Shown here: piece by piece, positions 510-13,890 of the stretch
How the letters are laid out: each line of letters opens with the position of its first letter
Numbering within the stretch: position 1 is the stretch's first letter
Origin: Candidatus Aenigmatarchaeota archaeon
Lineage (GTDB): Archaea > Aenigmatarchaeota > Aenigmatarchaeia > QMZP01
NCBI GenBank assembly: GCA_043811635.1
Contig: JBDRNB010000016.1
Location: forward strand, 1 to 28,370
Direction: 5' to 3'
Length of the DNA: 28,370 nucleotides
Translations under genes and position numbers: made by a program
The notes under the pieces: model-generated
The model's input: only the letters and a program-made list of their open reading frames with translations
Told to the model about the DNA's origin: nothing
Databases searched by the model: none

Positions 510-1238
510 ATGGAAAGATCCAGGGTTTCCACAGGCATATCCGGATTAGATGAAAAGATGCAGGGTGGTTTCTTCTCAGGAAGCTCAAACCTAATAGTAG
601 GAAAAACAGGAACAGGCAAGACCTCATTCTGCGCATCCTTCTTAAGACACGGCGCACTGATAGAAGAGCCTGGTGTTTATGTAACAACAGAACAGAGGGA
701 AGATGATATAAGGGGGGATATACTTGCAACCTTTGGCTGGGACATGAAGCAGCTAGAGACAAAAAAGATGATCAAGTTCATCTCCATACAGCCTATATTT
801 CCCAGCAAAGCAATGACCTTGGATGACATAAACAAGATAATCAAAACCTACATCTACGACATCCTGGATAAGATAAAGACAAGCGTGAATGAAATCAAGG
901 CAAAGCGTATTGTTGTAGATTCCATATCCATCATGGAAATGTTCATACGTGACGAATACTTGTCGAGAGTGGGCATGATGCAGCTCATAGAGAATCTGAA
1001 GAAGCTGGGAGTGACGTCTGTCCTTACAGGAACCATACCAGAGACTTCAGAGGCATTATCAAGCGGCGGCATAGTGGAATATATAGTAGACACAGTAATC
1101 AAGCTGGACTTCGTTCCTGTCGCTGAGGAGTTCAAGAGAACGCTGACAATCAGGAAGATGAGAAGAACAGATCACTCAACAATGATACACCCATTCGACA
1201 TAGCCAAGTTCGGCCTGAAGATAATTGAAATCAAGTAG
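510..1238 (+). CDS. Single-domain KaiC-like / RecA-superfamily ATPase
   Basis: N-terminal RVSTGISGLD, Walker A GKTGTGKT, YVTTEQ, Walker B IVVDS, C-terminal IRKMR motif. Confidence 0.9.
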   Translation: MERSRVSTGISGLDEKMQGGFFSGSSNLIVGKTGTGKTSFCASFLRHGALIEEPGVYVTTEQREDDIRGDILATFGWDMKQLETKKMIKFISIQPIFPSKAMTLDDINKIIKTYIYDILDKIKTSVNEIKAKRIVVDSISIMEMFIRDEYLSRVGMMQLIENLKKLGVTSVLTGTIPETSEALSSGGIVEYIVDTVIKLDFVPVAEEFKRTLTIRKMRRTDHSTMIHPFDIAKFGLKIIEIK

Positions 1239-1260
1239 AAAATGATTAAAAACAGCTGTA

Positions 1261-1935
1261 TCAAAGTTCATTCTTTTTGATGACTATACCTTTTGGTGTA
1301 ATTTCAAATGGATACACATCCTTTCCATGATTAGTCCCACGCATCTTTCTTATCAAGAGGCTTCTTGCATCCAGCCCACCGATGCCTAAATAATTAAGAA
1401 CAACCACAGTGTCCACTGAAAACTCCTCTACACCGAATCTTGAGAGCGAACTAGATCCTTCTGGTATCTCAGAAATAATAAGGGATGTACACCCTGCATT
1501 CTTCAATGTCGCTATGAGGTTCATGATCCTTCGTCTTATCTGCGCGATCTCACCTATGACAAGTCCCATGACAGCAACAGAGTCTATAACAATCCTCTTT
1601 GCCTTGAGGTTAGACAGTTCATCTATGATGACAGATCCTATATTATTTACCTGCGCAGGATCATGATAAATAATCTTACAAAGTCCTTTCTTCTCAAACT
1701 TCCCAAAATCCCATCCAAACAATAAGCCATCCTGTTTGATGGCATCAGCGCTTTCCTCAAGAGTTATGTATATACATGATTCCCCTCTTTGAAGACCTTC
1801 CCACAGAAACTGAGAAGAGAATATGGTTTTTCCTGTGCCTGTACCGCCTGTGATAAGGTTAACAGAGCCATCTATAAATCCTCCACCAATTAATGGGTCG
1901 AGACCATGAACACCACTCTTCACTCTTTTAATCAT
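1261..1935 (-). CDS. Single-domain KaiC-like / RecA-superfamily ATPase
   Basis: RVKSGVHGLD, Walker A GGTGTGKT, YITLEE, Walker B IVIDS, IRKMRG motif. Confidence 0.92.
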   Translation of the reverse strand: MIKRVKSGVHGLDPLIGGGFIDGSVNLITGGTGTGKTIFSSQFLWEGLQRGESCIYITLEESADAIKQDGLLFGWDFGKFEKKGLCKIIYHDPAQVNNIGSVIIDELSNLKAKRIVIDSVAVMGLVIGEIAQIRRRIMNLIATLKNAGCTSLIISEIPEGSSSLSRFGVEEFSVDTVVVLNYLGIGGLDARSLLIRKMRGTNHGKDVYPFEITPKGIVIKKNEL

Positions 1936-5942: not shown

Positions 5943-6569
5943 ATGAAGACATTAGAAGCAATCAAGAAAGTGAAGGAACAATCAAAGGAAAGAAAATTCA
6001 AACAAACATGGGATATTTCTATAGGTCTTAAAGGCCTTGATTTGAGAAAACCAGAGAACAGACTAAACACCGAATTCGTTCTTCCAGAAGGTCGTGGTAA
6101 GGAACAGAAGGTAGTTGTCATAGCAGATTCCATTGCAAAAGAGGCAGAGAACCACGCAGACAAGGTTGTGACAAAGGAAGAGCTTGAATCAATCATTTCT
6201 GACAAGAAGAAGATAAAGAAGTTAGCTGATAGCTACGATAGATTCTTATGTGAAGCCAGCTTGATGGCACAGGTAGGAAAGCACCTGGGTGCTATTTTGG
6301 GACCCAGAGGAAAGGTTCCAAAACCAATGCCACCAAGGGCAAACCCAGAGCCATTCATCAAGATGGCGAAGAGGACAATCAGGATCTCCCTGAGAGACAA
6401 TCCAGTTATTCATATTTCTGTAGGAACAGAGGACATGGAAGATGAGAAGGTTGTAAAGAACATAGATGCTGTTCTAAACTTCATCAAGGAGAAGCTGCCC
6501 AAGGGACAGACAAACATCAAGTCTGCATACCTGAAACTCACAATGAGCAAGCCTGTGAGGTTGGAGTGA
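5943..6569 (+). CDS. rpl1: 50S ribosomal protein L1 (uL1)
   Basis: RKFKQTWDISIGLKGLDL, LGAILGPRGKVPKP, KLTMSKPV; SD AGGAGGA upstream. Confidence 0.97.
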   Translation: MKTLEAIKKVKEQSKERKFKQTWDISIGLKGLDLRKPENRLNTEFVLPEGRGKEQKVVVIADSIAKEAENHADKVVTKEELESIISDKKKIKKLADSYDRFLCEASLMAQVGKHLGAILGPRGKVPKPMPPRANPEPFIKMAKRTIRISLRDNPVIHISVGTEDMEDEKVVKNIDAVLNFIKEKLPKGQTNIKSAYLKLTMSKPVRLE

Positions 6570-8013: not shown

Positions 8014-9483
8014 TCAATCGAACATTCTTTTTCCATGGTATTTTCCAAAAACAGTTTCTATTATCTTTCTACTCTCACCAGTATAATGTGCAGGATCGCT
8101 CATATCCCTTATCACGTCTTCATCAAAACGTGAATTTATTCTATCATCTGCTAATAGAGCATCTGCATAGGGCGTTCGGTTTCTGAAAGCAGTAGTTGCA
8201 AGTTCAGCTGCAATTTCATGTGCTTCATCCCACGTTAGAGGAGCATCCGTTCTTCTAGCATCTGTTAGATGAGTCATCACATTCCTGGATGTTGTAACAC
8301 CATATGATCTATCAATTCGTTCTTTGGCGCGCTCTTCATCAAGAATGAGCTTAGACATCACGTCAGCCATCCTTCTAATAACATGATCACCGAATTTGAA
8401 CATATCATCGAAATAGATTCTATCTGGGGCAGAACCAACAAGATCACGCGCATAATCAAATATACATGTAGACAAATTGTAAGCAACAGGACCTATCATA
8501 TATCTTGCAAACCCCTCAGCTTGTTCCTCAGCTGTTTGATTACCTCCTTTCAAATCCTTTTGTGGCATCGAAGATGATCCCTTTTTCTTCAATGGGAATG
8601 TAAAAAGTCTGGAATCATCCCCTCTATGAAACCTTACATTATGTGCTAAATTACCTACACTCTGTCCCACTAAAGAAAGCATCATAGGAGTCAAGGTCAG
8701 CATTTCCCTTGAAGGAACCTGTGCAGAAGCATCCATATATTGTAAACCTAATTTCTTACAATATAATTCCTGGAGCAATGGACCATCAAAACCACTAGCT
8801 TTTGCCTCATGGAAATTTCCAGTGGCATCAGACCATTTCCCATAGAGTTTTTCATCATGCACACGCTTTAATTCTTCAAGACAAAATTGCAGTGTCTCAG
8901 CATAAAAGGCAAACGGCCTTCCAACATGTGAAGACAATGCATCATTAAGATGAGTCAAATCTATGCTAGGTTTGTCAGACCAGTCCAAATAAGCTCTTTC
9001 GAGTGTTATATCTCTAAGATTCTCACCAGAATCTATTATTGTTCTTATAGCGTCCCTTATCTGAAGAGCTTGTGTTGTCACAGTTGTGCATGCACTTGCC
9101 CTGAATTTATTGATATATCTACCTGCTTCTGGGCTAACAACACCATTCCATCCCCTGTTAATAGCTATTACATCATGTCCAGTATCAGCTTCTATAGCTC
9201 TGATAACGTCAGCACCAATAACATCTACTTTGGCTTTTCTCACCAGTTCATCTGTAATCTCAGCAGAAATAAAATCAGGATCAACTTCTCTTATAGTTTC
9301 AATAGAAGCAGCCTGTGAGTCCAAACTATACTGAAATGTCGCTTCATCTCCCCATATACCTCGTTTAATACCTACACCACACATTTCATCTGTGCCGTAT
9401 CTACCATGCGATAGTCTAGCAGAATCAATCTCTCTAATATCATGGTGTTTTGGTTCGGTCCTTTCTAACACAGGCTTGGTCAT
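8014..9483 (-). CDS. purB: Adenylosuccinate lyase-like protein (fumarase/aspartase superfamily), divergent
   Basis: GRYGTDEM, HDVIA, THL, GKWSDATG, AQV.SRE, signature SSSMPQK...N...E, RD......DR. Confidence 0.82.
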   Translation of the reverse strand: MTKPVLERTEPKHHDIREIDSARLSHGRYGTDEMCGVGIKRGIWGDEATFQYSLDSQAASIETIREVDPDFISAEITDELVRKAKVDVIGADVIRAIEADTGHDVIAINRGWNGVVSPEAGRYINKFRASACTTVTTQALQIRDAIRTIIDSGENLRDITLERAYLDWSDKPSIDLTHLNDALSSHVGRPFAFYAETLQFCLEELKRVHDEKLYGKWSDATGNFHEAKASGFDGPLLQELYCKKLGLQYMDASAQVPSREMLTLTPMMLSLVGQSVGNLAHNVRFHRGDDSRLFTFPLKKKGSSSMPQKDLKGGNQTAEEQAEGFARYMIGPVAYNLSTCIFDYARDLVGSAPDRIYFDDMFKFGDHVIRRMADVMSKLILDEERAKERIDRSYGVTTSRNVMTHLTDARRTDAPLTWDEAHEIAAELATTAFRNRTPYADALLADDRINSRFDEDVIRDMSDPAHYTGESRKIIETVFGKYHGKRMFD

Positions 9484-9558
9484 AAATTCAAATTAATAAT
9501 AAATTTTAAATACAGAAGCGCGAATCAAAACTTAAATCTCCCCCTGCGTAACTATTCA

Positions 9559-9572
9559 TAAACATGTGTTTA
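9559..9572. promoter_or_regulatory. Palindromic operator-like site 1, TAAACA-TG-TGTTTA
   Basis: Perfect 6-2-6 inverted repeat, 13/14 identical to the core of site 2. Confidence 0.7.
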
Positions 9573-9589
9573 CAGTATATACTTTTTAG

Positions 9590-9607
9590 TATATAAACCT
9601 TTATATA
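9590..9607 (+). promoter_or_regulatory. TATA box TTTATATA (9600-9607) inside the palindrome TATATAAA-CC-TTTATATA
   Basis: Read directly; about 33 nt upstream of the HTH ATG at 9640. Confidence 0.6.
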
Positions 9608-9620
9608 TTAATAAAATTAA

Positions 9621-9640
9621 TTATAAACAGGTGTTTATAA
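9621..9640. promoter_or_regulatory. Palindromic operator-like site 2, TTATAAACA-GG-TGTTTATAA, overlapping the SD and start codon of the HTH gene
   Basis: Perfect 9-2-9 inverted repeat containing AGGTG; its last base is the A of ATG 9640. Confidence 0.75.
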
Positions 9641-9867
9641 TGAGAAAGGAACCAGCGAAACCAGAACTCATCAATAAAATTTTACAAGAGCTTAGCAAAC
9701 ATCCAGAAGGCGTCTGGATAAGAAAACTAGCTCGAAATATCAAGGAGCCTCTAGCCACGGTTTACAAATATGTAATCAGAGAGGATTACTGTGGAAAATA
9801 TATTACAATGGAGAAGAGAGATAATGAGCTTGGCGGGCATTTGATGATTAAAAGAAAAGGTGAATAA
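9640..9867 (+). CDS. Small helix-turn-helix DNA-binding protein (75 aa)
   Basis: GVWIRKLARNIKEPLATVYKYV helix-turn-helix pattern; SD AGGTG before ATG 9640; its stop abuts the next ATG. Confidence 0.8.
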   Translation: MRKEPAKPELINKILQELSKHPEGVWIRKLARNIKEPLATVYKYVIREDYCGKYITMEKRDNELGGHLMIKRKGE

Positions 9868-11013
9868 ATGGAAGAACATAAAAGAGAATACAGTCTATGG
9901 GACTTGCCTGAAAAGAATGTGTACGTTAAGATTAAAGAAGACATAAGGTTAGACTTTTTTAACTTTATCAAATCTAATCATGGTGGAGCAAAAAAACTAT
10001 CTAAATCCTGCAAAAATATAAAACTAACTAATTCGCATATATATAATTGGAGAAGGGGTATTAATTTTATTCCTTTAGAAATTCTCAACAAATTCTTATC
10101 AATTCTAGAAAAAAAAGACAAATTGCGATATCAAAATCTTATTTCAACAAATATAGAAAAATTAAAATCAGGTTCGAACAGTAGAAATATTTCCAATGTA
10201 AAATTTCCAATAAAGTTTTCAACAAATTTAGCTAGAATAGCAGGTCATCTAGTGGGTGATGGTGGTATAAGCGCTACAGGAGAAGAAAAATATACTACCT
10301 ATTATTCTAATAAATGTTACGATTTGATTAAACTCTTTAAAGATGATATAGAAAAAAATTTTGGTAATATAAAAATCTATGTATTTTTTGATAAAAGATA
10401 TAAAGTTTTTCAAATTAAACTTCCCAAAATAGTAGGAATAATCTTAGCTCAATTTTTTGGATTTCAGGCAAATGACTTAAAACATGTCCCAAAAGTAGTA
10501 TCACAATCGGATAAAATATACAAATCATTATTTTTACAAGCTTTATTTGATGATGAGGCCAACGTAGATAAGAGTGGCCGTAAAATAACTATTATGATGA
10601 CAAACAGGAAAATAATAAGAGATGTTAAATGCATACTTAATTCTCTTAATATAACAACAGGCGAAGTAAAAGAAATAAAAAAAACAAAAGATAACAGGCA
10701 ATCCATTTTTGGATTTTATATTACACATAATAAAAATTTCCTAGAATTTCATGAAGAGATTGGTTTTTCACATCCAAATAAAAAAGCCAATTTAAAATCA
10801 TTAATTGAAGATTATCACCCTCACTATGAAAATGGTGAGATGGACAAAAACATTATTAAATTGTTAAGAAATAAAAGAATGACAGCACTAGAATTGTCCA
10901 TCGAATTAGAAAGATCATGTTCCAGAACAAAACAAAAATTACAAGAACTAGAAAGAAATAATATAATAAAGGCGATTGTTGCCAAACAAAACCTAAAAAT
11001 ATATCACATGTAA
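9868..11013 (+). CDS. Free-standing LAGLIDADG (DOD-type) endonuclease-family protein with N- and C-terminal HTH-like segments
   Basis: Motif 1 LARIAGHLVGDGGI, K.VP (DLKHVPK), motif 2 FLQALFDDEANV, IGFSHPNKK block; C-terminal MTALELSIELERSCSRTKQKLQELERNNII. No intein splicing residues. SD AGGTGA at 9858-9863. Confidence 0.85.
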   Translation: MEEHKREYSLWDLPEKNVYVKIKEDIRLDFFNFIKSNHGGAKKLSKSCKNIKLTNSHIYNWRRGINFIPLEILNKFLSILEKKDKLRYQNLISTNIEKLKSGSNSRNISNVKFPIKFSTNLARIAGHLVGDGGISATGEEKYTTYYSNKCYDLIKLFKDDIEKNFGNIKIYVFFDKRYKVFQIKLPKIVGIILAQFFGFQANDLKHVPKVVSQSDKIYKSLFLQALFDDEANVDKSGRKITIMMTNRKIIRDVKCILNSLNITTGEVKEIKKTKDNRQSIFGFYITHNKNFLEFHEEIGFSHPNKKANLKSLIEDYHPHYENGEMDKNIIKLLRNKRMTALELSIELERSCSRTKQKLQELERNNIIKAIVAKQNLKIYHM

Positions 11014-11022
11014 GAGGTTCAA

Positions 11023-13890
11023 ATGGATAAATCAGTAATAATTAAAAAATTTCAGAAAGATCCAAAGAAGTACTGGGAAGTAGAGCTCTTTAGAGAGAAG
11101 GGATTTGTCAGAAGGCAATGCGAAACATGCAAGAAATATTTTTGGACACTTAATTCTGATAGAAAAACATGCGCAGATTCCACATGCGAACCATATGGAT
11201 TCATAGGAAAGACAATCACAGCCGGCAAATGGAATTATGTAGAGACATGGAAGATGTTTGAGAAATTTTTTGTCAGGAATGGCCACGAGTCAATCAAGAG
11301 ATACCCGGTGATAGATCGTATAAGGCCTGACCTGTACTTCACCATAGCCTCTATCCAGAACTTCCAGCGGATAGACAACGGAAATATGAGCTTTGTGTAT
11401 CCAGCTAACCCACTTATTGTTCCCCAGGTATGCCTGAGATTCAATGACATAGCATCGGTAGGAGTAAGTGGAAGACATCTCACATCCTTTGTCATGCCTG
11501 GACAGCATGCATTCAACTACCCAAAGGAAGGATACTTCAAAGACAGATGCATGGAGCTTAATTTCAATTTTCTTGTTGGTGTGATGGGCATACCACAAAA
11601 CGAATTGATATACGCAGAGGACATGTGGTCAATGCCAGGAGCCTTTGGCCCATCTATTGAAACCTTTAGTAAAGGGTTAGAACTTGTAAACCATGTTTTT
11701 ATGCAATTTCAGCCTAGTAATTCTACTTTCAAAGAGCTTCCAATAAAGGTAATAGATACCGGTTGGGGATTAAATAGGCTGGTTTGGTTTTCAAACGGAA
11801 CCAATACCATGTATGAATCCACATTCGGACCAATGATAGACCGAATGAAGAAGAGCTGTGGAATAGAGCTCAAGCCTGGCTTATTCTCAAAATACTCAGA
11901 GCTTGCTGGAGCACTTGACATATCAGAGATCAATGACCCTGAAAAGGCAAAGAAGAAGATAGCAGACGCTCTAGGCATCTCCTTGAAGGAGATGAATGAC
12001 AGAATAAATCCAATGACTGCTGTTTATGCAATAGCAGACCATATAAGAACGCTACTCTTCGCCATAACAGATGGAGGCATACCATCGAATATTGGAGGAG
12101 GATACAACCTGAGGGTCATACTTAGAAGAGCTCTTTCATTCATAGATGAATACAAGCTGAATATTGATCTGTACAATGTTGCAGAAGAGCATGCAAAATT
12201 CCTGAAACCCATATTCCCTGAACTGACAGAATCGCTTGAGAATGTGAAGAAGATACTGGAGATAGAGAAACAGAAGTATGATTCAACAATAGAGAATGGA
12301 AAAAACATAATCGCAAAGCTTCTGCAGAAGAAGCAGGAGATCACAGAAAAGAAGTTCATAGAGCTTTATGAATCCCATGGGATATCACCTGAGATCATAT
12401 CAAAGGAAGCAGATGTTCCAATACCAGGCTCCCTGTACTCAAAACTAACAGCGGGGCATGAATCTATAAAGGAGAAGAAAAGCAAGATTGACATAGGGGT
12501 AATGGAGCCGACAGAAATCTTATTCTACAAACAACCTGATAAAAAAGAGTTCACAGCAAAGATTCTGAAGGTGATAGACAAAAAGCATGTGATTTTGGAC
12601 AAGACCTTGTTCTACGCGCGTTCAGGAGGCCAGGATTGCGATCAGGGAACGCTCAACGGAAAGAAGGTATATAATGTGGAGAAGATTGGGAATGTGTTTG
12701 TACATGATGTTGAGAAGCCAAACTTCAAGGCTGGAGAGATTGTTTCAGGAAAGATAGACTGGCATAGAAGAAAGCAGCTTATGCAGCACCACACAGCTAT
12801 TCACCTACTTAACGGAGTCACAAAGAAGATCCTAGGCAGTCATGTCTGGCAGGCTGGTGCAGAGAAGACTGTTGAAAAGGCACACCTGGACATCACACAC
12901 TACAAGCCGCTTGCACAAGAAGAGCTGGACAAGATAGAGGAGGAGGCAAACAATATAATAAAGAAGAAGATACCCACAACTTCAGCATGGCTTCCAAGAG
13001 GAGAAGCAGAAGGCAAGCATGGACTTGCCTTATACCAGGGAGGGGTTGTTCCTGGAAATGAGATACGTGTATTGGAGATACCAGGAACAGATGTGGAAGC
13101 ATGTGGAGGAATACATGTACACAACACAGGAGATATAGAGCAAATGATAATCATAGGTTCAGAGCGAATACAGGATGGGATAAATAGAATAACAATCAAG
13201 GCTGGCGCGGCAGCAGATGCATATCTCGATCACACATTCGCGATAGCAAACAACATAGTTGAGATAATAAAGAAGCTTGAGATCATAAAATTCTCTGAGA
13301 AATTCTCCAAGAAGCTTACAAGGGAGATCGCATTCAAGGAACTGCAGAAATGCGCACGTCTGTTCTCAGTCTCAGTGGACAAGCTCGAGAAGACAATCAC
13401 GAAATTCTATGTGGACATACTTGAGCAGAGGAATAACTTAGACCTGATGAACAAGCAGGTTGGTGTATCATCCAAAACACTTGAAAAGAGAAAGGCAGAC
13501 ACGTTAGAGGATGCATGTAATTATCTGTTTGAGTTGTGGAAGGAGCAGAGGAAGGAGACAGAAAATCTTACCAAGGAGGTATCAGGTAAGGTTGCGGAAA
13601 AGCTAGAGGAAAAGATCAAGGACAAGCAGATCGTGGAGATGATACAGGGTGACAGAAAGGAATTGATCAGCACTGCAGACTCCCTGATCAAGGGACACCC
13701 AGATATAACCATAGTGCTTGCCAATCACATAGGAGACATCATCTGCAGAACAGATACAAAGGACGCAAGCCAGGTTCTGGAGATCATCACCAAACAAGCA
13801 GGTGGGACAGGCGGCGGCAGAAAGCATTTCGCACAGGGAAAGATCGAAGTCTCCAAACTACTGAAGATAATAGAGAATATCAGGGTGTGA
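11023..13890 (+). CDS. alaS: Alanine--tRNA ligase, archaeal type
   Basis: N-terminal C..C...C....C, FTIASI, CLRFNDI..VG.SGRH, IDTGWGLNR, AIADH.R, editing motifs HHTAIH and CGGIH, C-terminal GGGR..FAQG. Confidence 0.98.
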   Translation: MDKSVIIKKFQKDPKKYWEVELFREKGFVRRQCETCKKYFWTLNSDRKTCADSTCEPYGFIGKTITAGKWNYVETWKMFEKFFVRNGHESIKRYPVIDRIRPDLYFTIASIQNFQRIDNGNMSFVYPANPLIVPQVCLRFNDIASVGVSGRHLTSFVMPGQHAFNYPKEGYFKDRCMELNFNFLVGVMGIPQNELIYAEDMWSMPGAFGPSIETFSKGLELVNHVFMQFQPSNSTFKELPIKVIDTGWGLNRLVWFSNGTNTMYESTFGPMIDRMKKSCGIELKPGLFSKYSELAGALDISEINDPEKAKKKIADALGISLKEMNDRINPMTAVYAIADHIRTLLFAITDGGIPSNIGGGYNLRVILRRALSFIDEYKLNIDLYNVAEEHAKFLKPIFPELTESLENVKKILEIEKQKYDSTIENGKNIIAKLLQKKQEITEKKFIELYESHGISPEIISKEADVPIPGSLYSKLTAGHESIKEKKSKIDIGVMEPTEILFYKQPDKKEFTAKILKVIDKKHVILDKTLFYARSGGQDCDQGTLNGKKVYNVEKIGNVFVHDVEKPNFKAGEIVSGKIDWHRRKQLMQHHTAIHLLNGVTKKILGSHVWQAGAEKTVEKAHLDITHYKPLAQEELDKIEEEANNIIKKKIPTTSAWLPRGEAEGKHGLALYQGGVVPGNEIRVLEIPGTDVEACGGIHVHNTGDIEQMIIIGSERIQDGINRITIKAGAAADAYLDHTFAIANNIVEIIKKLEIIKFSEKFSKKLTREIAFKELQKCARLFSVSVDKLEKTITKFYVDILEQRNNLDLMNKQVGVSSKTLEKRKADTLEDACNYLFELWKEQRKETENLTKEVSGKVAEKLEEKIKDKQIVEMIQGDRKELISTADSLIKGHPDITIVLANHIGDIICRTDTKDASQVLEIITKQAGGTGGGRKHFAQGKIEVSKLLKIIENIRV

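What the first reader, a model, noticed from the sequence alone, without database searches (positions are those of the whole stretch)
9484..11022. AT-rich HTH + free-standing HTH-LAGLIDADG-wHTH cassette fused transcriptionally to alaS
Seen: a compositionally foreign block with a 75-aa HTH gene whose stop abuts a 381-aa protein. That protein has two LAGLIDADG motifs with the acidic residues kept (GDG, DDE) and the K.VP lysine, is flanked by HTH-like segments and has no intein or intron context. alaS begins 9 nt downstream and no separate alaS promoter is visible. Established: LAGLIDADG folds act as homing nucleases or, when domesticated (WhiA), as transcription factors; restriction-modification systems use a small upstream HTH C-protein to time nuclease expression. 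Inference: either a self-regulated free-standing homing unit that has captured the promoter of an essential gene, which makes it hard to lose, or a domesticated regulator. This is the best candidate for an undescribed system in the window.
Basis: partly seen in the sequence, partly recalled or inferred. Interest (0 to 1): 0.75.

Follow-up and report, generated by a model that had tools for sequence, protein, structure and literature searches.

The report
Homing cassette replacing the alaS start
A selfish two-gene DNA element (a small repressor plus a LAGLIDADG nuclease) appears to have inserted into the first codons of the essential alanyl-tRNA synthetase gene of a tiny DPANN archaeon, and it keeps that gene working without splicing because it carries its own replacement start of the gene.

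Summary
A 75-aa winged-helix gene (9640-9867) abuts a 381-aa HTH-LAGLIDADG-wHTH gene (9868-11013), and alaS starts 9 nt later. The block has 25-28% GC against 40-45% in the flanks.

Comparative evidence favours a mobile homing element over a domesticated regulator:
- Only 2 of 84 alaS-bearing genomes of the order carry it, and 4 of 118 genomes in an Aenigmatarchaeota order.
- A same-genus pair shows a filled site (G049) and an empty site (G050).
- Cassette and alaS trees disagree (AU p 6e-4 and 9e-6).
- The catalytic Asp/Glu residues are invariant, and decayed copies exist.

New finding: the element sits inside the alaS 5' coding end. In G049, L005, L003 and L065 the native promoter and first 11-24 alaS codons survive as a remnant upstream of the cassette. 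The working alaS downstream begins with a different, AT-rich, cassette-type N-terminus. An rpL44e-associated paralog (L068) has the same layout.

A palindrome (TAAACA-NN-TGTTTA) sits just before the small gene in all 12 loci. It occurs only twice in this genome, on either side of the cassette TATA box, which suggests autoregulation.

The closest analogue is the fungal mitochondrial mobile ORF that replaces gene 3' ends. Cleavage, operator binding and transcript starts are untested. The window's own copy has no remnant.

The parts
9525..9539 (+). Candidate remnant of the native alaS promoter (TCAAAACTTAAATCT)
   Evidence: This 15-mer is identical to the sequence 21-35 nt upstream of the alaS ATG in the cassette-free genome G050. 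It is nearly identical to the sequence upstream of the alaS remnant in G049. Assigning it as a promoter is inference.
9558..9573 (+). Distal operator palindrome ATAAACATGTGTTTAC
   Evidence: It is one of only two exact TAAACA-NN-TGTTTA sites in the 822-kb genome. With one mismatch allowed, the window holds 3 matches against 0.19 expected by chance. A distal copy at about -80 is also present in L004, L010, L065 and L163.
9596..9609 (+). Cassette BRE/TATA box (AACCTTTATATATT)
   Evidence: It lies between the two operators. A homologous GAAAyCTTTAtATA element sits at the same position in all cassette loci. Its promoter function is inferred.
9623..9638 (+). Proximal operator palindrome ATAAACAGGTGTTTAT, ending 1 nt before the small gene's ATG
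   Evidence: It is conserved at -4 to -17 from the small gene's start in all 12 loci that carry this gene. These include loci with different nuclease lineages and solo copies of the small gene.
9640..9867 (+). 75-aa winged-helix protein, the putative autorepressor of the cassette
   Evidence: Alignment A3 has 12 homologs with 58% mean column identity. The AF2 model (pLDDT 85) is a minimal wHTH. There are no Pfam, NCBIfam, PADLOC or PHROGs hits.
9868..11013 (+). 381-aa free-standing LAGLIDADG protein: N-terminal helical/HTH domain (about residues 1-110), double-motif core (about 115-320) and C-terminal wHTH (about 324-381)
   Evidence: Pfam LAGLIDADG_3. AF2 pLDDT 92, with fold matches to I-DmoI, PI-PfuI and PI-TkoII. 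D131, D228, D229 and P208 are invariant, and E230 and K205 are at least 90% conserved. The family has at least 420 clusters (50% identity) at E<=1e-30.
10993..11007 (+). TATA-like sequence inside the nuclease gene's 3' end (codons for NLKIY), a possible internal alaS promoter
   Evidence: yTAAAAATATAT lies 15-35 nt before the alaS start in the clade-A orthologous loci W, L005, L004, L009, L063, L003 and L010. It is not obvious in G049 or L065. It may only reflect the conserved wing peptide and AT-rich codon use, and its function is untested.
11013..11018 (+). Shine-Dalgarno-like AGAGGT before alaS
   Evidence: SD-like GGAGG/GAGGT/AGGT lies 5-10 nt before the alaS start in W, L005, L004, L009 and G049. 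In L003, L009, L004 and L010 the nuclease gene overlaps the alaS start by 8-14 nt. Cassette-free alleles have a TATA box about 25-30 nt before the ATG, so they look leaderless.
11023..11094 (+). Cassette-borne replacement 5' end of alaS (about codons 1-14, at most 1-24)
   Evidence: GC is 0.21 for codons 1-14 and 0.29 for codons 1-24, against 0.41 for the next 100 codons. The N-terminus MDKSVIIKKFQK... is of the type shared by cassette-bearing alleles in unrelated hosts. It differs from the native ML/FTKxSLKKEF type. In G049 against G050 the first 22 or so codons are about 50% identical and the rest about 80%.
11023..13890 (+). alaS (archaeal alanine-tRNA ligase, 955 aa), the host gene
   Evidence: TIGR03683 at 1e-254, plus tRNA-synt_2c, tRNA_SAD and DHHA1.

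Best explanation
The block 9596-11094 is a mobile, splicing-independent homing element of DPANN archaea.

Proposed mechanism (inferred unless marked otherwise):
- The 381-aa LAGLIDADG protein is a monomeric double-motif enzyme with extra N-terminal HTH and C-terminal wHTH DNA-binding domains. It most likely cuts cassette-free alaS alleles in the conserved 5' coding region, around codons 14-25.
- Repair from a cassette-bearing allele copies in the element: cassette promoter and operators, the small wHTH gene, the nuclease gene, then a new SD, start codon and first 14-24 or so alaS codons.
- Relative to the native gene, the element therefore lies inside the coding sequence, like an intron or intein. 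Function is restored by re-starting the gene rather than by splicing.
- The displaced native promoter and 5' codons remain upstream as a pseudo-remnant. That remnant also supplies the left homology arm for further homing.
- The 75-aa wHTH protein probably binds the two palindromic operators on either side of the cassette TATA box. The proximal operator overlaps the expected transcript start. This would autoregulate the small-gene/nuclease(/alaS) transcript and keep nuclease expression low.
- alaS is translated from an SD on the polycistronic RNA, and possibly also from an internal TATA-like promoter.
- Imprecise loss would destroy an essential gene, so the element should be hard to lose.

Shown: the anatomy, fold, conserved catalytic residues, patchy fixed-site distribution, filled/empty pair, remnants, tree incongruence and operator conservation.
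Inferred: cleavage, the cut site, operator binding, the transcript structure and the role of the remnant as a homology arm.
For: 1. Fixed site with patchy presence. alaS was found in 84 of 91 genomes of the order, but only G000 and G049 have the cassette before it. In an Aenigmatarchaeota order only G091-G094 of 118 genomes do. All nine other alaS-type loci place the nuclease gene from -14 to +10 nt of the alaS start, whatever lies upstream.
2. Filled and empty sites within one genus. G050 has P0-P1-alaS with a 98-nt spacer. G049 has the native alaS promoter and 14 native codons (37/42 nt identical to G050, all 5 differences synonymous), then the cassette, then an alaS whose first 42 nt are only 28/42 identical to G050.
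3. Remnants of the native alaS 5' end lie upstream of the cassette in L005 (z 13.5), G049 (z 8.5), L003 (z 9.0, 24 codons) and L065 (z 3.4). The rpL44e-type paralog L068 has the same design (z 19.5).
4. Cassette-bearing alaS alleles share a distinct AT-rich N-terminus across hosts.
5. Phylogeny. Cassette-bearing alaS alleles fall in at least 5 places, with cassette-free sisters. One clade for them is rejected (delta-lnL 355, p-AU 6e-4). Hosts of the 100/99-supported nuclease clade A are not a clade either (p-AU 9e-6). Identities to the window are mosaic for nuclease/small protein/alaS: G049 40/75/55%, L005 64/53/79%.
6. The nuclease gene is AT-richer than alaS in all 7 loci compared.
7. Catalytic D131 is invariant and E230 is at least 90% conserved. 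The fold matches active archaeal homing endonucleases.
8. Decayed copies exist: matches with stops in the order and a fragmented THEP1-type copy in G115 against an intact one in G165.
9. The operator palindrome is conserved in all 12 loci and occurs only twice in the genome.
10. Paralogs sit directly before other housekeeping genes: Lhr/DEAD helicases, thrS, rpL44e, hjc, pop5, arcTGT, carB, minD and a THEP1 NTPase.
Against: - No cleavage, binding or transcript data exist. No RNA runs hold this sequence.
- The window's own copy has no detectable alaS remnant, so its insertion history is inferred from relatives. The same is true of L004.
- The working alaS downstream of the cassette still carries an apparently complete copy of the presumed target region. 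How the host allele escapes cutting is not explained; no consistent 'immunity' substitutions were seen.
- Within nuclease clade A the topology is largely compatible with the alaS tree apart from L009. Some vertical inheritance with loss is therefore likely.
- Non-monophyly of the alaS-associated nucleases is only weakly supported (p-AU 0.028, with the group named after the tree was seen).
- The cassette was identical and present in four DNA runs from 2016-2024, and no empty allele was seen. Those runs are contigs only.
- The alaS tree itself does not follow the genome family codes, which complicates using it as a species proxy.
- Most paralog cassettes show no remnant.
Confidence: 0.74

Rival explanations
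1. Domesticated LAGLIDADG transcription factor (WhiA-like). On this reading, the 381-aa protein has lost mobility and, together with the small wHTH protein, regulates alaS. It is vertically inherited as part of an alaS operon.
For: - It has two extra DNA-binding domains (N-terminal HTH, C-terminal wHTH), and WhiA appears among the fold matches.
- It is tightly coupled to alaS, with a 9-nt spacer here and 8-14-nt overlaps in relatives.
- The copy is intact and unchanged in samples from 2016-2024.
- Part of nuclease clade A is topologically compatible with the alaS tree.
Against: - It is absent before alaS in 82 of 84 genomes of the order and in about 114 of 118 genomes of a second order.
- One genus holds both a filled and an empty site.
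- The catalytic acidic residues and the lysine are conserved, unlike in WhiA.
- Native alaS 5' remnants and foreign replacement 5' ends are present.
- The gene is consistently AT-rich compared with its host.
- Decayed copies exist.
Confidence: 0.1
2. The cassette is a mobile passenger, but the LAGLIDADG protein does not drive its spread. On this reading, the block moves only because alaS 5' regions are exchanged by ordinary recombination or gene transfer among DPANN archaea. The nuclease would then be inactive, or would serve another role such as a nicking, maturase-like or defence function.
For: - alaS itself does not follow the genome family codes, which suggests frequent alaS transfer.
- No target site could be identified, and the host allele keeps the presumed target region.
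- No biochemical data exist.
Against: - In G049 only about the first 22 codons are foreign, while the alaS body is native (about 80% identical to G050). The cassette therefore moved without alaS.
- Paralogs are placed in the same way, immediately before other conserved genes (Lhr/DEAD helicases, thrS, rpL44e, hjc, pop5 and others), and the same replacement layout is seen at rpL44e (L068). This points to an element-encoded, site-specific mechanism.
- The active-site residues are under conservation.
- No PADLOC defence family matches.
Confidence: 0.12
3. Assembly or binning artefact. On this reading, the AT-rich block is a chimeric join of foreign DNA into the alaS contig.
For: The sharp drop in GC. 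The genome is a fragmented metagenome-assembled genome of 117 contigs, 75% complete.
Against: - Independent contigs from four runs in three studies cover the junctions at 99% identity or more. One 1608-nt contig spans 9632-11239 and another spans 10955-11422.
- The same gene order occurs in at least 10 independent assemblies.
Confidence: 0.02

Closest known systems
Fungal mitochondrial mobile endonuclease ORFs (mORFs) that create 'gene hybrids' (Allomyces macrogynus atp6; Glomus atp6/atp9/cox2/nad3; Rhizopus atp9; Mortierella cox2), as described in PMC3630166
   Same: - A free-standing LAGLIDADG (or GIY-YIG) gene is inserted inside a conserved protein-coding gene near one end.
- The element carries a foreign copy of the displaced terminal codons, which keeps the gene functional without splicing.
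- The native terminal segment stays next to it as a remnant.
- That remnant is more like the gene of close relatives than the inserted copy is. Here the figures are 37/42 against 28/42 nt. In Glomus they are 91-98% against 64-81%.
   Different: - The layout is a mirror image: the 5' end (promoter, start codon, N-terminal codons) is replaced, not the 3' end. The element must therefore also supply translation-initiation signals, and perhaps transcription-initiation signals.
- The host is an archaeal chromosome, not a mitochondrial genome.
- The targets are alaS and rpL44e, possibly among other housekeeping genes.
- The nuclease carries extra HTH and wHTH domains.
- A dedicated small wHTH gene with paired operators accompanies it.
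I-DmoI / I-Tsp061I and intein LAGLIDADG endonucleases (PI-PfuI, PI-TkoII) of archaea
   Same: A monomeric double-LAGLIDADG core fold (TM 0.70 by target to I-DmoI), with an acidic residue at the end of each LAGLIDADG helix and a conserved lysine.
   Different: It is not inside an rRNA intron or an intein. It has no Hint domain. It has added N-terminal helical and C-terminal wHTH domains. Sequence identity to these enzymes is only 14-20%.
Free-standing homing endonuclease genes of T-even and other phages (seg, mob, F-CphI; 'intronless homing')
   Same: A free-standing nuclease gene lies next to a conserved gene that it probably targets, and it spreads with co-conversion of flanking sequence. This comparison rests on my own knowledge of that literature and on the general description in PMC6083498.
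   Different: Phage elements sit in intergenic regions and are GIY-YIG, HNH or EndoVII-type enzymes. Here a LAGLIDADG enzyme in a cellular archaeal genome lies within the target's coding region and brings a duplicated, replaced 5' end.
WhiA (DUF199), the bacterial domesticated LAGLIDADG regulator
   Same: A double LAGLIDADG scaffold joined to a C-terminal HTH-type DNA-binding domain. It appears among the fold matches (ranks 40, 49, 50).
   Different: WhiA has lost the catalytic acidic residues and is vertically conserved. This protein keeps those residues and is patchily distributed.
C (controller) proteins of restriction-modification systems
   Same: A small HTH gene lies immediately upstream of, and is coupled to, a nuclease gene. 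Two palindromic operator copies sit at its own promoter, one distal and one over the transcript start.
   Different: It has a winged-helix rather than an Xre-type fold. There is no methyltransferase. It acts at an archaeal TATA/BRE promoter. Binding and timing functions are untested.

Membership tests
LAGLIDADG homing endonucleases (monomeric, double-motif) | Two LAGLIDADG helices forming the core of a pseudo-dimeric alpha-beta fold | tested here: met
   Pfam PF14528 at 8e-11. The AF2 model has pLDDT 92, with helices 119-129 and 216-230 each followed by beta strands. Foldseek probability is 1.0 to I-DmoI, I-Tsp061I, PI-PfuI and PI-TkoII.
LAGLIDADG homing endonucleases (monomeric, double-motif) | Catalytic acidic residue at the C-terminal end of each LAGLIDADG helix | tested here: met
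   D131 (GDG) is invariant. E230 (DDE) is conserved in at least 90% of 16 homologs and is Asp in the exception. K205 is at least 90% conserved.
LAGLIDADG homing endonucleases (monomeric, double-motif) | Site-specific double-strand cleavage of the element-free allele | not testable with these tools
   This needs purified protein and cassette-free alaS 5' substrates.
LAGLIDADG homing endonucleases (monomeric, double-motif) | Mobility: presence/absence polymorphism at one fixed site, and a phylogeny incongruent with the host gene | tested here: met
   Present in 2 of 84 and 4 of 118 genomes. G049 is filled and G050 is empty. AU tests give p 6e-4 and 9e-6.
LAGLIDADG homing endonucleases (monomeric, double-motif) | Residence in a self-splicing intron or intein (usual for archaeal members; not strictly defining) | tested here: not met
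   It is a stand-alone ORF with its own start and stop. It has no Hint domain and no intron context.
Terminal-replacement mobile ORFs ('gene hybrid' mORFs of fungal mitochondria) | Endonuclease ORF inserted within a conserved coding gene near one terminus | tested here: met
   Relative to the native 5' remnants, the cassette lies after codons 11-24 of alaS in G049, L005, L003 and L065, and after codon 23 or so of rpl44e in L068. It is at the 5' end, not the 3' end.
Terminal-replacement mobile ORFs ('gene hybrid' mORFs of fungal mitochondria) | The element carries a foreign copy of the displaced terminal codons, which completes the gene | tested here: met
   The cassette-type alaS N-terminus is shared across unrelated hosts and is AT-rich. 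G049's first 22 or so codons are about 50% identical to G050, against about 80% for the rest.
Terminal-replacement mobile ORFs ('gene hybrid' mORFs of fungal mitochondria) | The native displaced segment persists as an adjacent remnant that is closer to relatives than the inserted copy is | tested here: inconclusive
   This is met in G049 (37/42 against 28/42 nt) and in L005 (39/54 to G043, against 20/54 to its own new 5' end), and also in L003, L065 and L068. It is not met in the window's own copy or in L004, where no remnant was detected.
WhiA-like domesticated LAGLIDADG regulators | Loss of the catalytic acidic residues | tested here: not met
   The residues are retained and conserved.
WhiA-like domesticated LAGLIDADG regulators | Broad vertical conservation within the lineage | tested here: not met
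   A close ortholog is present in 2 of 91 genomes of the order.
C-protein-type nuclease controllers | Small DNA-binding gene upstream of and coupled to the nuclease gene, with paired palindromic operators at its own promoter | tested here: met
   Its stop abuts the nuclease ATG. The operators are at 9558-9573 and 9623-9638. They are conserved in 12 loci and unique in the genome. Binding was not tested.
C-protein-type nuclease controllers | Partner methyltransferase / restriction-modification context | tested here: not met
   No methyltransferase lies in or next to the cassette. No PADLOC match was found.

The most novel reading that the evidence does not exclude
A large, undescribed family of free-standing archaeal LAGLIDADG homing elements, with at least 420 protein clusters (50% identity) at E<=1e-30. 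They invade the 5' coding ends of essential genes (alaS and rpL44e; paralogs also sit directly before thrS, Lhr, hjc and other housekeeping genes). Instead of splicing, they survive by supplying a replacement promoter-proximal start and N-terminal codons. The displaced native 5' end serves as the left homology arm, and a dedicated winged-helix autorepressor controls the nuclease through twin operators. Such elements could also drive the exchange of 5' gene segments, and possibly of whole alaS alleles, among DPANN archaea.
Probability: 0.55. Interest if true: 0.8.

Novelty: new variant of a known kind. Interest (0 to 1): 0.72.

Why it matters
Homing endonuclease genes are thought to persist in essential genes only by hiding in self-splicing introns or inteins, or by sitting between genes, as in phages. 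The one documented exception is the 3'-end replacement elements of fungal mitochondria.

This cassette would show a third strategy in cellular prokaryotes: insertion into the 5' coding end, with a carried-in replacement start. It would also show that the strategy is widespread in DPANN archaea.

If true, it would:
- add a mechanism for mosaic housekeeping genes and for gene transfer in ultrasmall archaea;
- explain an unannotated, abundant protein family;
- provide a set of monomeric LAGLIDADG enzymes with two accessory DNA-binding domains, plus a compact archaeal repressor/operator pair. Both are directly testable and could be useful as tools.

Tried and rejected
- Dimer prediction for the 75-aa wHTH protein (complex prediction): no verdict, so it is not evidence either way.
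- PADLOC and PHROGs scans of both cassette proteins: no hits. Pfam and NCBIfam give nothing for the small protein.
- Search for RNA data: only DNA runs hold the sequence, so transcript starts could not be mapped.
- Laying contigs of four runs gave no cassette-less allele. The one 'joint' (10219-10659) and the loose ends come from other organisms' LAGLIDADG genes.
- Remnant search upstream of the window's own cassette, of L004, and of most paralog cassettes (Lhr, thrS, hjc, pop5, arcTGT, carB, minD, NUDIX, HIT, THEP1, and two of the three rpL44e loci): nothing above shuffled controls.
- Attempt to find fixed 'immunity' substitutions between cassette-bearing and cassette-free alaS codons 12-30: none were evident by eye.
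- Monophyly test of the alaS-associated nucleases: only marginal rejection (p 0.028), with the group defined after seeing the tree. 'Several nuclease lineages target alaS' is therefore left as likely, not shown.
- The intein and intron readings were rejected because there is no Hint domain and the ORF is separate.
- The sigma-70 promoter scanner was not used because archaeal promoters are outside its scope.
- Earlier-findings look-up by sequence: nothing found.
Full report
**What is at the coordinates**

The window is contig C16 of a 0.82-Mb, 75%-complete archaeal genome. A same-family relative, G049, is deposited as a 'Nanoarchaeota archaeon', so this is a DPANN archaeon.

Between the divergent purB-like gene (8014-9483, minus strand) and alaS (11023-13890) lie two coupled plus-strand ORFs:
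- A small ORF whose conserved start is ATG 9640, giving 75 aa. Its stop is at 9865-9867.
- A 381-aa ORF at 9868-11013.

alaS begins 9 nt later. GC falls to 0.25-0.28 in the block, against 0.39-0.46 on both sides.

**The proteins**

The 381-aa protein:
- It matches Pfam LAGLIDADG_3 (8e-11), has a weak C-terminal TrmB-type wHTH match and has no intein domain.
- Its AlphaFold2 model (pLDDT 92) shows an N-terminal helical domain, a double LAGLIDADG core and a C-terminal winged helix.
- Foldseek places the core with PI-TkoII, PI-PfuI, the Tli VMA intein endonuclease, I-Tsp061I and I-DmoI (TM about 0.70 by target). WhiA ranks lower.
- In a 16-sequence alignment, D131 (GDG), D228 and D229 are invariant. 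E230 and K205 are at least 90% conserved. The active site of a cutting enzyme is therefore kept.

The 75-aa protein has no family match. It folds as a minimal winged helix (pLDDT 85; TM about 0.7 to Z-alpha, ArsR/SmtB and MarR domains).

**Always before alaS, but rarely present**

- Homologs of 46-64% identity all lie directly upstream of alaS. The nuclease gene often overlaps the alaS start by 8-14 nt. The upstream neighbours are unrelated from locus to locus.
- In the window's order, alaS was found in 84 of 91 species genomes. A close nuclease ortholog, placed before alaS, occurs only in G000 and G049.
- In a second order, which contains deposited Aenigmatarchaeota, only G091-G094 of 118 genomes carry the alaS-type cassette.
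- G050, in the same genus as G049, has P0-P1-alaS with a 98-nt spacer. G030 has the same arrangement with a 54-nt spacer. These are empty sites.

**The element lies inside the alaS 5' coding end**

- Upstream of the G049 cassette lies the native alaS promoter region, followed by 14 native alaS codons (MFTKESLKKKFSDD). These codons are 37/42 nt identical to G050, and all five differences are synonymous. They run straight into the cassette TATA box.
- The alaS downstream of the G049 cassette starts with a different sequence that is 28/42 identical to G050. Its first 22 or so codons are about 50% identical to G050 at the protein level, with GC 0.23 against 0.37. The rest is about 80% identical.
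- Equivalent remnants of a native-type alaS N-terminus lie upstream of the cassette in L005 (z 13.5 against shuffles), L003 (z 9.0; 24 codons with an internal stop) and L065 (z 3.4). None is detectable in the window or in L004.
- Cassette-bearing alaS alleles in unrelated hosts share an N-terminus of the form MDK..LIK.FQ..P..YW. Cassette-free alleles start ML/FTK.SLKKEF.
- In the window, alaS codons 1-14 have GC 0.21, against 0.41 further in.
- An rpL44e-associated paralog in an Aenigmatarchaeota genome (L068) has the same design. A 26-codon rpl44e remnant lies 96 nt before the nuclease gene, and a complete rpl44e lies 22 nt after it (z 19.5).
- The element thus behaves at the DNA level like an intron or intein insertion. 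It restores the gene by carrying a new SD, start codon and N-terminal codons.

**Phylogeny**

- On a 50-row alaS tree the ten cassette-bearing alleles fall in at least five places, each with cassette-free sisters: W+L005 with G043/G042, G049 with G050, and L004 with G045.
- Forcing the cassette-bearing alleles into one clade costs 355 lnL units (p-AU 6e-4). Presence changes at least 5 times on the tree.
- The nuclease tree has a 100/99-supported clade A: W, L005, L004, P0004, L003, L009, L010 and L063. The hosts of clade A are not a clade on the alaS tree (p-AU 9e-6).
- G049 and L065/L080 carry nucleases from the sister clade, which also holds rpL44e- and THEP1-associated copies. One clade for all alaS-associated nucleases is only marginally rejected (p 0.028, tested post hoc).
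- Module identities are mosaic. Against the window, G049 shows 40% (nuclease), 75% (small protein) and 55% (alaS). L005 shows 64%, 53% and 79%.
- The nuclease gene is AT-richer than alaS in all seven loci compared.
- Decayed copies exist: matches with internal stops in the order, and a fragmented THEP1-type copy in G115 against an intact one in G165.

Together these results fit repeated horizontal invasion, decay and loss. They do not fit a fixed, vertically inherited regulator.

**Regulation**

- A palindrome with consensus AT(A/G)AACA-NN-TGTT(T/C)A(T/C) ends 4-15 nt before the small gene's start in all 12 loci that have this gene. These include loci with other nuclease types and solo copies.
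- In the window a second copy lies 65 bp upstream. A BRE/TATA element (9596-9609) sits between the two copies.
- The exact motif TAAACA-NN-TGTTTA occurs only at these two places in the 822-kb assembly. With one mismatch allowed, the window holds 3 matches against 0.19 expected by chance.
- The simplest reading is autorepression by the wHTH protein, with the proximal site over the transcript start. This is inferred, not shown.
- A dimer prediction for the small protein gave no verdict.

**alaS expression**

Three points bear on how alaS is expressed:
- Cassette-bearing alleles have an SD-like sequence before alaS, or overlap the nuclease gene. This argues for translation from a polycistronic RNA.
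- The 15-mer at 9525-9539 is identical to the alaS promoter region of G050. The native promoter may therefore still feed the cassette.
- The conserved C-terminal NLKIY codons form a TATA-like sequence (10993-11007) about 25 nt before the alaS ATG. An internal alaS promoter cannot be excluded.

No RNA runs hold the sequence. Contigs from four DNA runs (2016-2024) carry the cassette unchanged and show no empty allele.

**The wider family**

- A profile search of 1.84 billion representatives finds 420 clusters at E<=1e-30 and 2912 at E<=1e-10. The best 150 listed are mostly full-length proteins of about 300-400 aa.
- Deposited titles place members in Woese-, Pace-/Nano-, Aenigm-, Micr- and Iainarchaeota.
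- Sampled full-length paralogs sit directly before other housekeeping genes, with overlaps of 4-29 nt or gaps under 30 nt. These genes are Lhr/DEAD helicases, thrS, rpL44e (three loci), hjc, pop5, arcTGT, carB, minD, a THEP1 NTPase, and NUDIX and HIT genes.
- One subfamily instead lies beside mre11-rad50.

**Comparison with known systems**

- The closest described analogue is the fungal mitochondrial mobile ORF. It inserts near the 3' end of atp6, atp9, cox2 or nad3, brings a foreign C-terminal segment and leaves the native C-terminus as a remnant. That remnant is more like close relatives than the insert is (PMC3630166).
- The present element is the 5' mirror image. It lies in archaeal chromosomes, has an HTH/wHTH-extended nuclease and carries its own repressor-operator module.
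- Full-text searches for free-standing archaeal LAGLIDADG elements and for homing endonucleases in DPANN found no description of it.
- It meets the structural and evolutionary criteria of a LAGLIDADG homing endonuclease. Cleavage is untested.
- It fails the criteria for a WhiA-like domesticated regulator.
- It resembles C-protein control only in layout.

**Verdict**

The 'domesticated regulator' half is not supported.
- Confidence is about 0.74 that this is a mobile homing cassette using 5'-end replacement.
- The main gaps are biochemical proof of cleavage, the unexplained immunity of the host allele, the absence of a remnant in the window's own copy, and unknown transcript starts.

Noticed in passing
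L164 (G040:C4) 1501-1758 and L165 (G041:C59) 1459-1716 (minus strand): Solo copies of the small wHTH gene (56-60% identical to the window's in alignment A3), with the same operator palindrome, lie about 300 nt upstream of ftsZ and have no nuclease gene. They may be relics of a lost cassette or a recruited regulator.
   Followed up: partly
L162 (G077:C1), minus strand, 824-1728: The same small wHTH gene and operator are followed by a different, short (224-aa) LAGLIDADG ORF and then an FKBP-type isomerase gene, next to a tRNA 3' end. The repressor module seems to be shuffled between nuclease types.
   Followed up: partly
alaS tree: alaS does not follow the genome family codes. For example, f1 genome G022 groups with f6 genomes at 100% support, and G041/G044 (f1) group with the Aenigmatarchaeota-type cassette-bearing alleles. 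This suggests transfer of alaS itself among DPANN lineages, possibly helped by the element.
   Followed up: no
L002 = G000:C60:2645-6448: The window's genome also holds a 1082-aa open frame with an internal LAGLIDADG domain that is 31% identical to the cassette nuclease. It is presumably an intein-containing gene. Many such long frames occur across the order.
   Followed up: no
L181 (JASEGQ010000004.1) 6359-6526: A 55-aa NTPase_1 (THEP1) fragment lies about 1.6 kb downstream of the cassette-linked THEP1 gene. It may be a displaced piece of the native gene.
   Followed up: no
L006 6001-6948 and L183 3001-4179: One subfamily of these LAGLIDADG proteins lies beside the mre11-rad50 genes, in one case 31 nt after the rad50 stop, rather than before a gene start. 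This may be a 3'-side variant.
   Followed up: no
L042 (G049:C70) 767-1604, minus strand: Besides the cassette, G049 has about 1.1 kb with two unknown minus-strand ORFs (197 and 99 aa) between P1 and the alaS remnant. G050 lacks this stretch.
   Followed up: no
window 9640-9720 against alaS 11023-11100; L010: The N-terminus of the small wHTH protein weakly resembles the alaS N-terminus. In L010, KGILEQLVSHPKGIWIRKLAREL aligns with KNLIKKLQSNPQRYWKVKLFDEL (z 4.4). This may be chance.
   Followed up: no
It is probably unrelated.
   Followed up: no
window 8014-9483, minus strand: The purB-like gene scores well below the purB equivalog cut-off (180 against 326 bits), so it may be a divergent lyase rather than a true adenylosuccinate lyase. 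L005 has a 521-aa minus-strand ORF in the equivalent position, plus a phosphoribosyltransferase gene that the window lacks.
   Followed up: no
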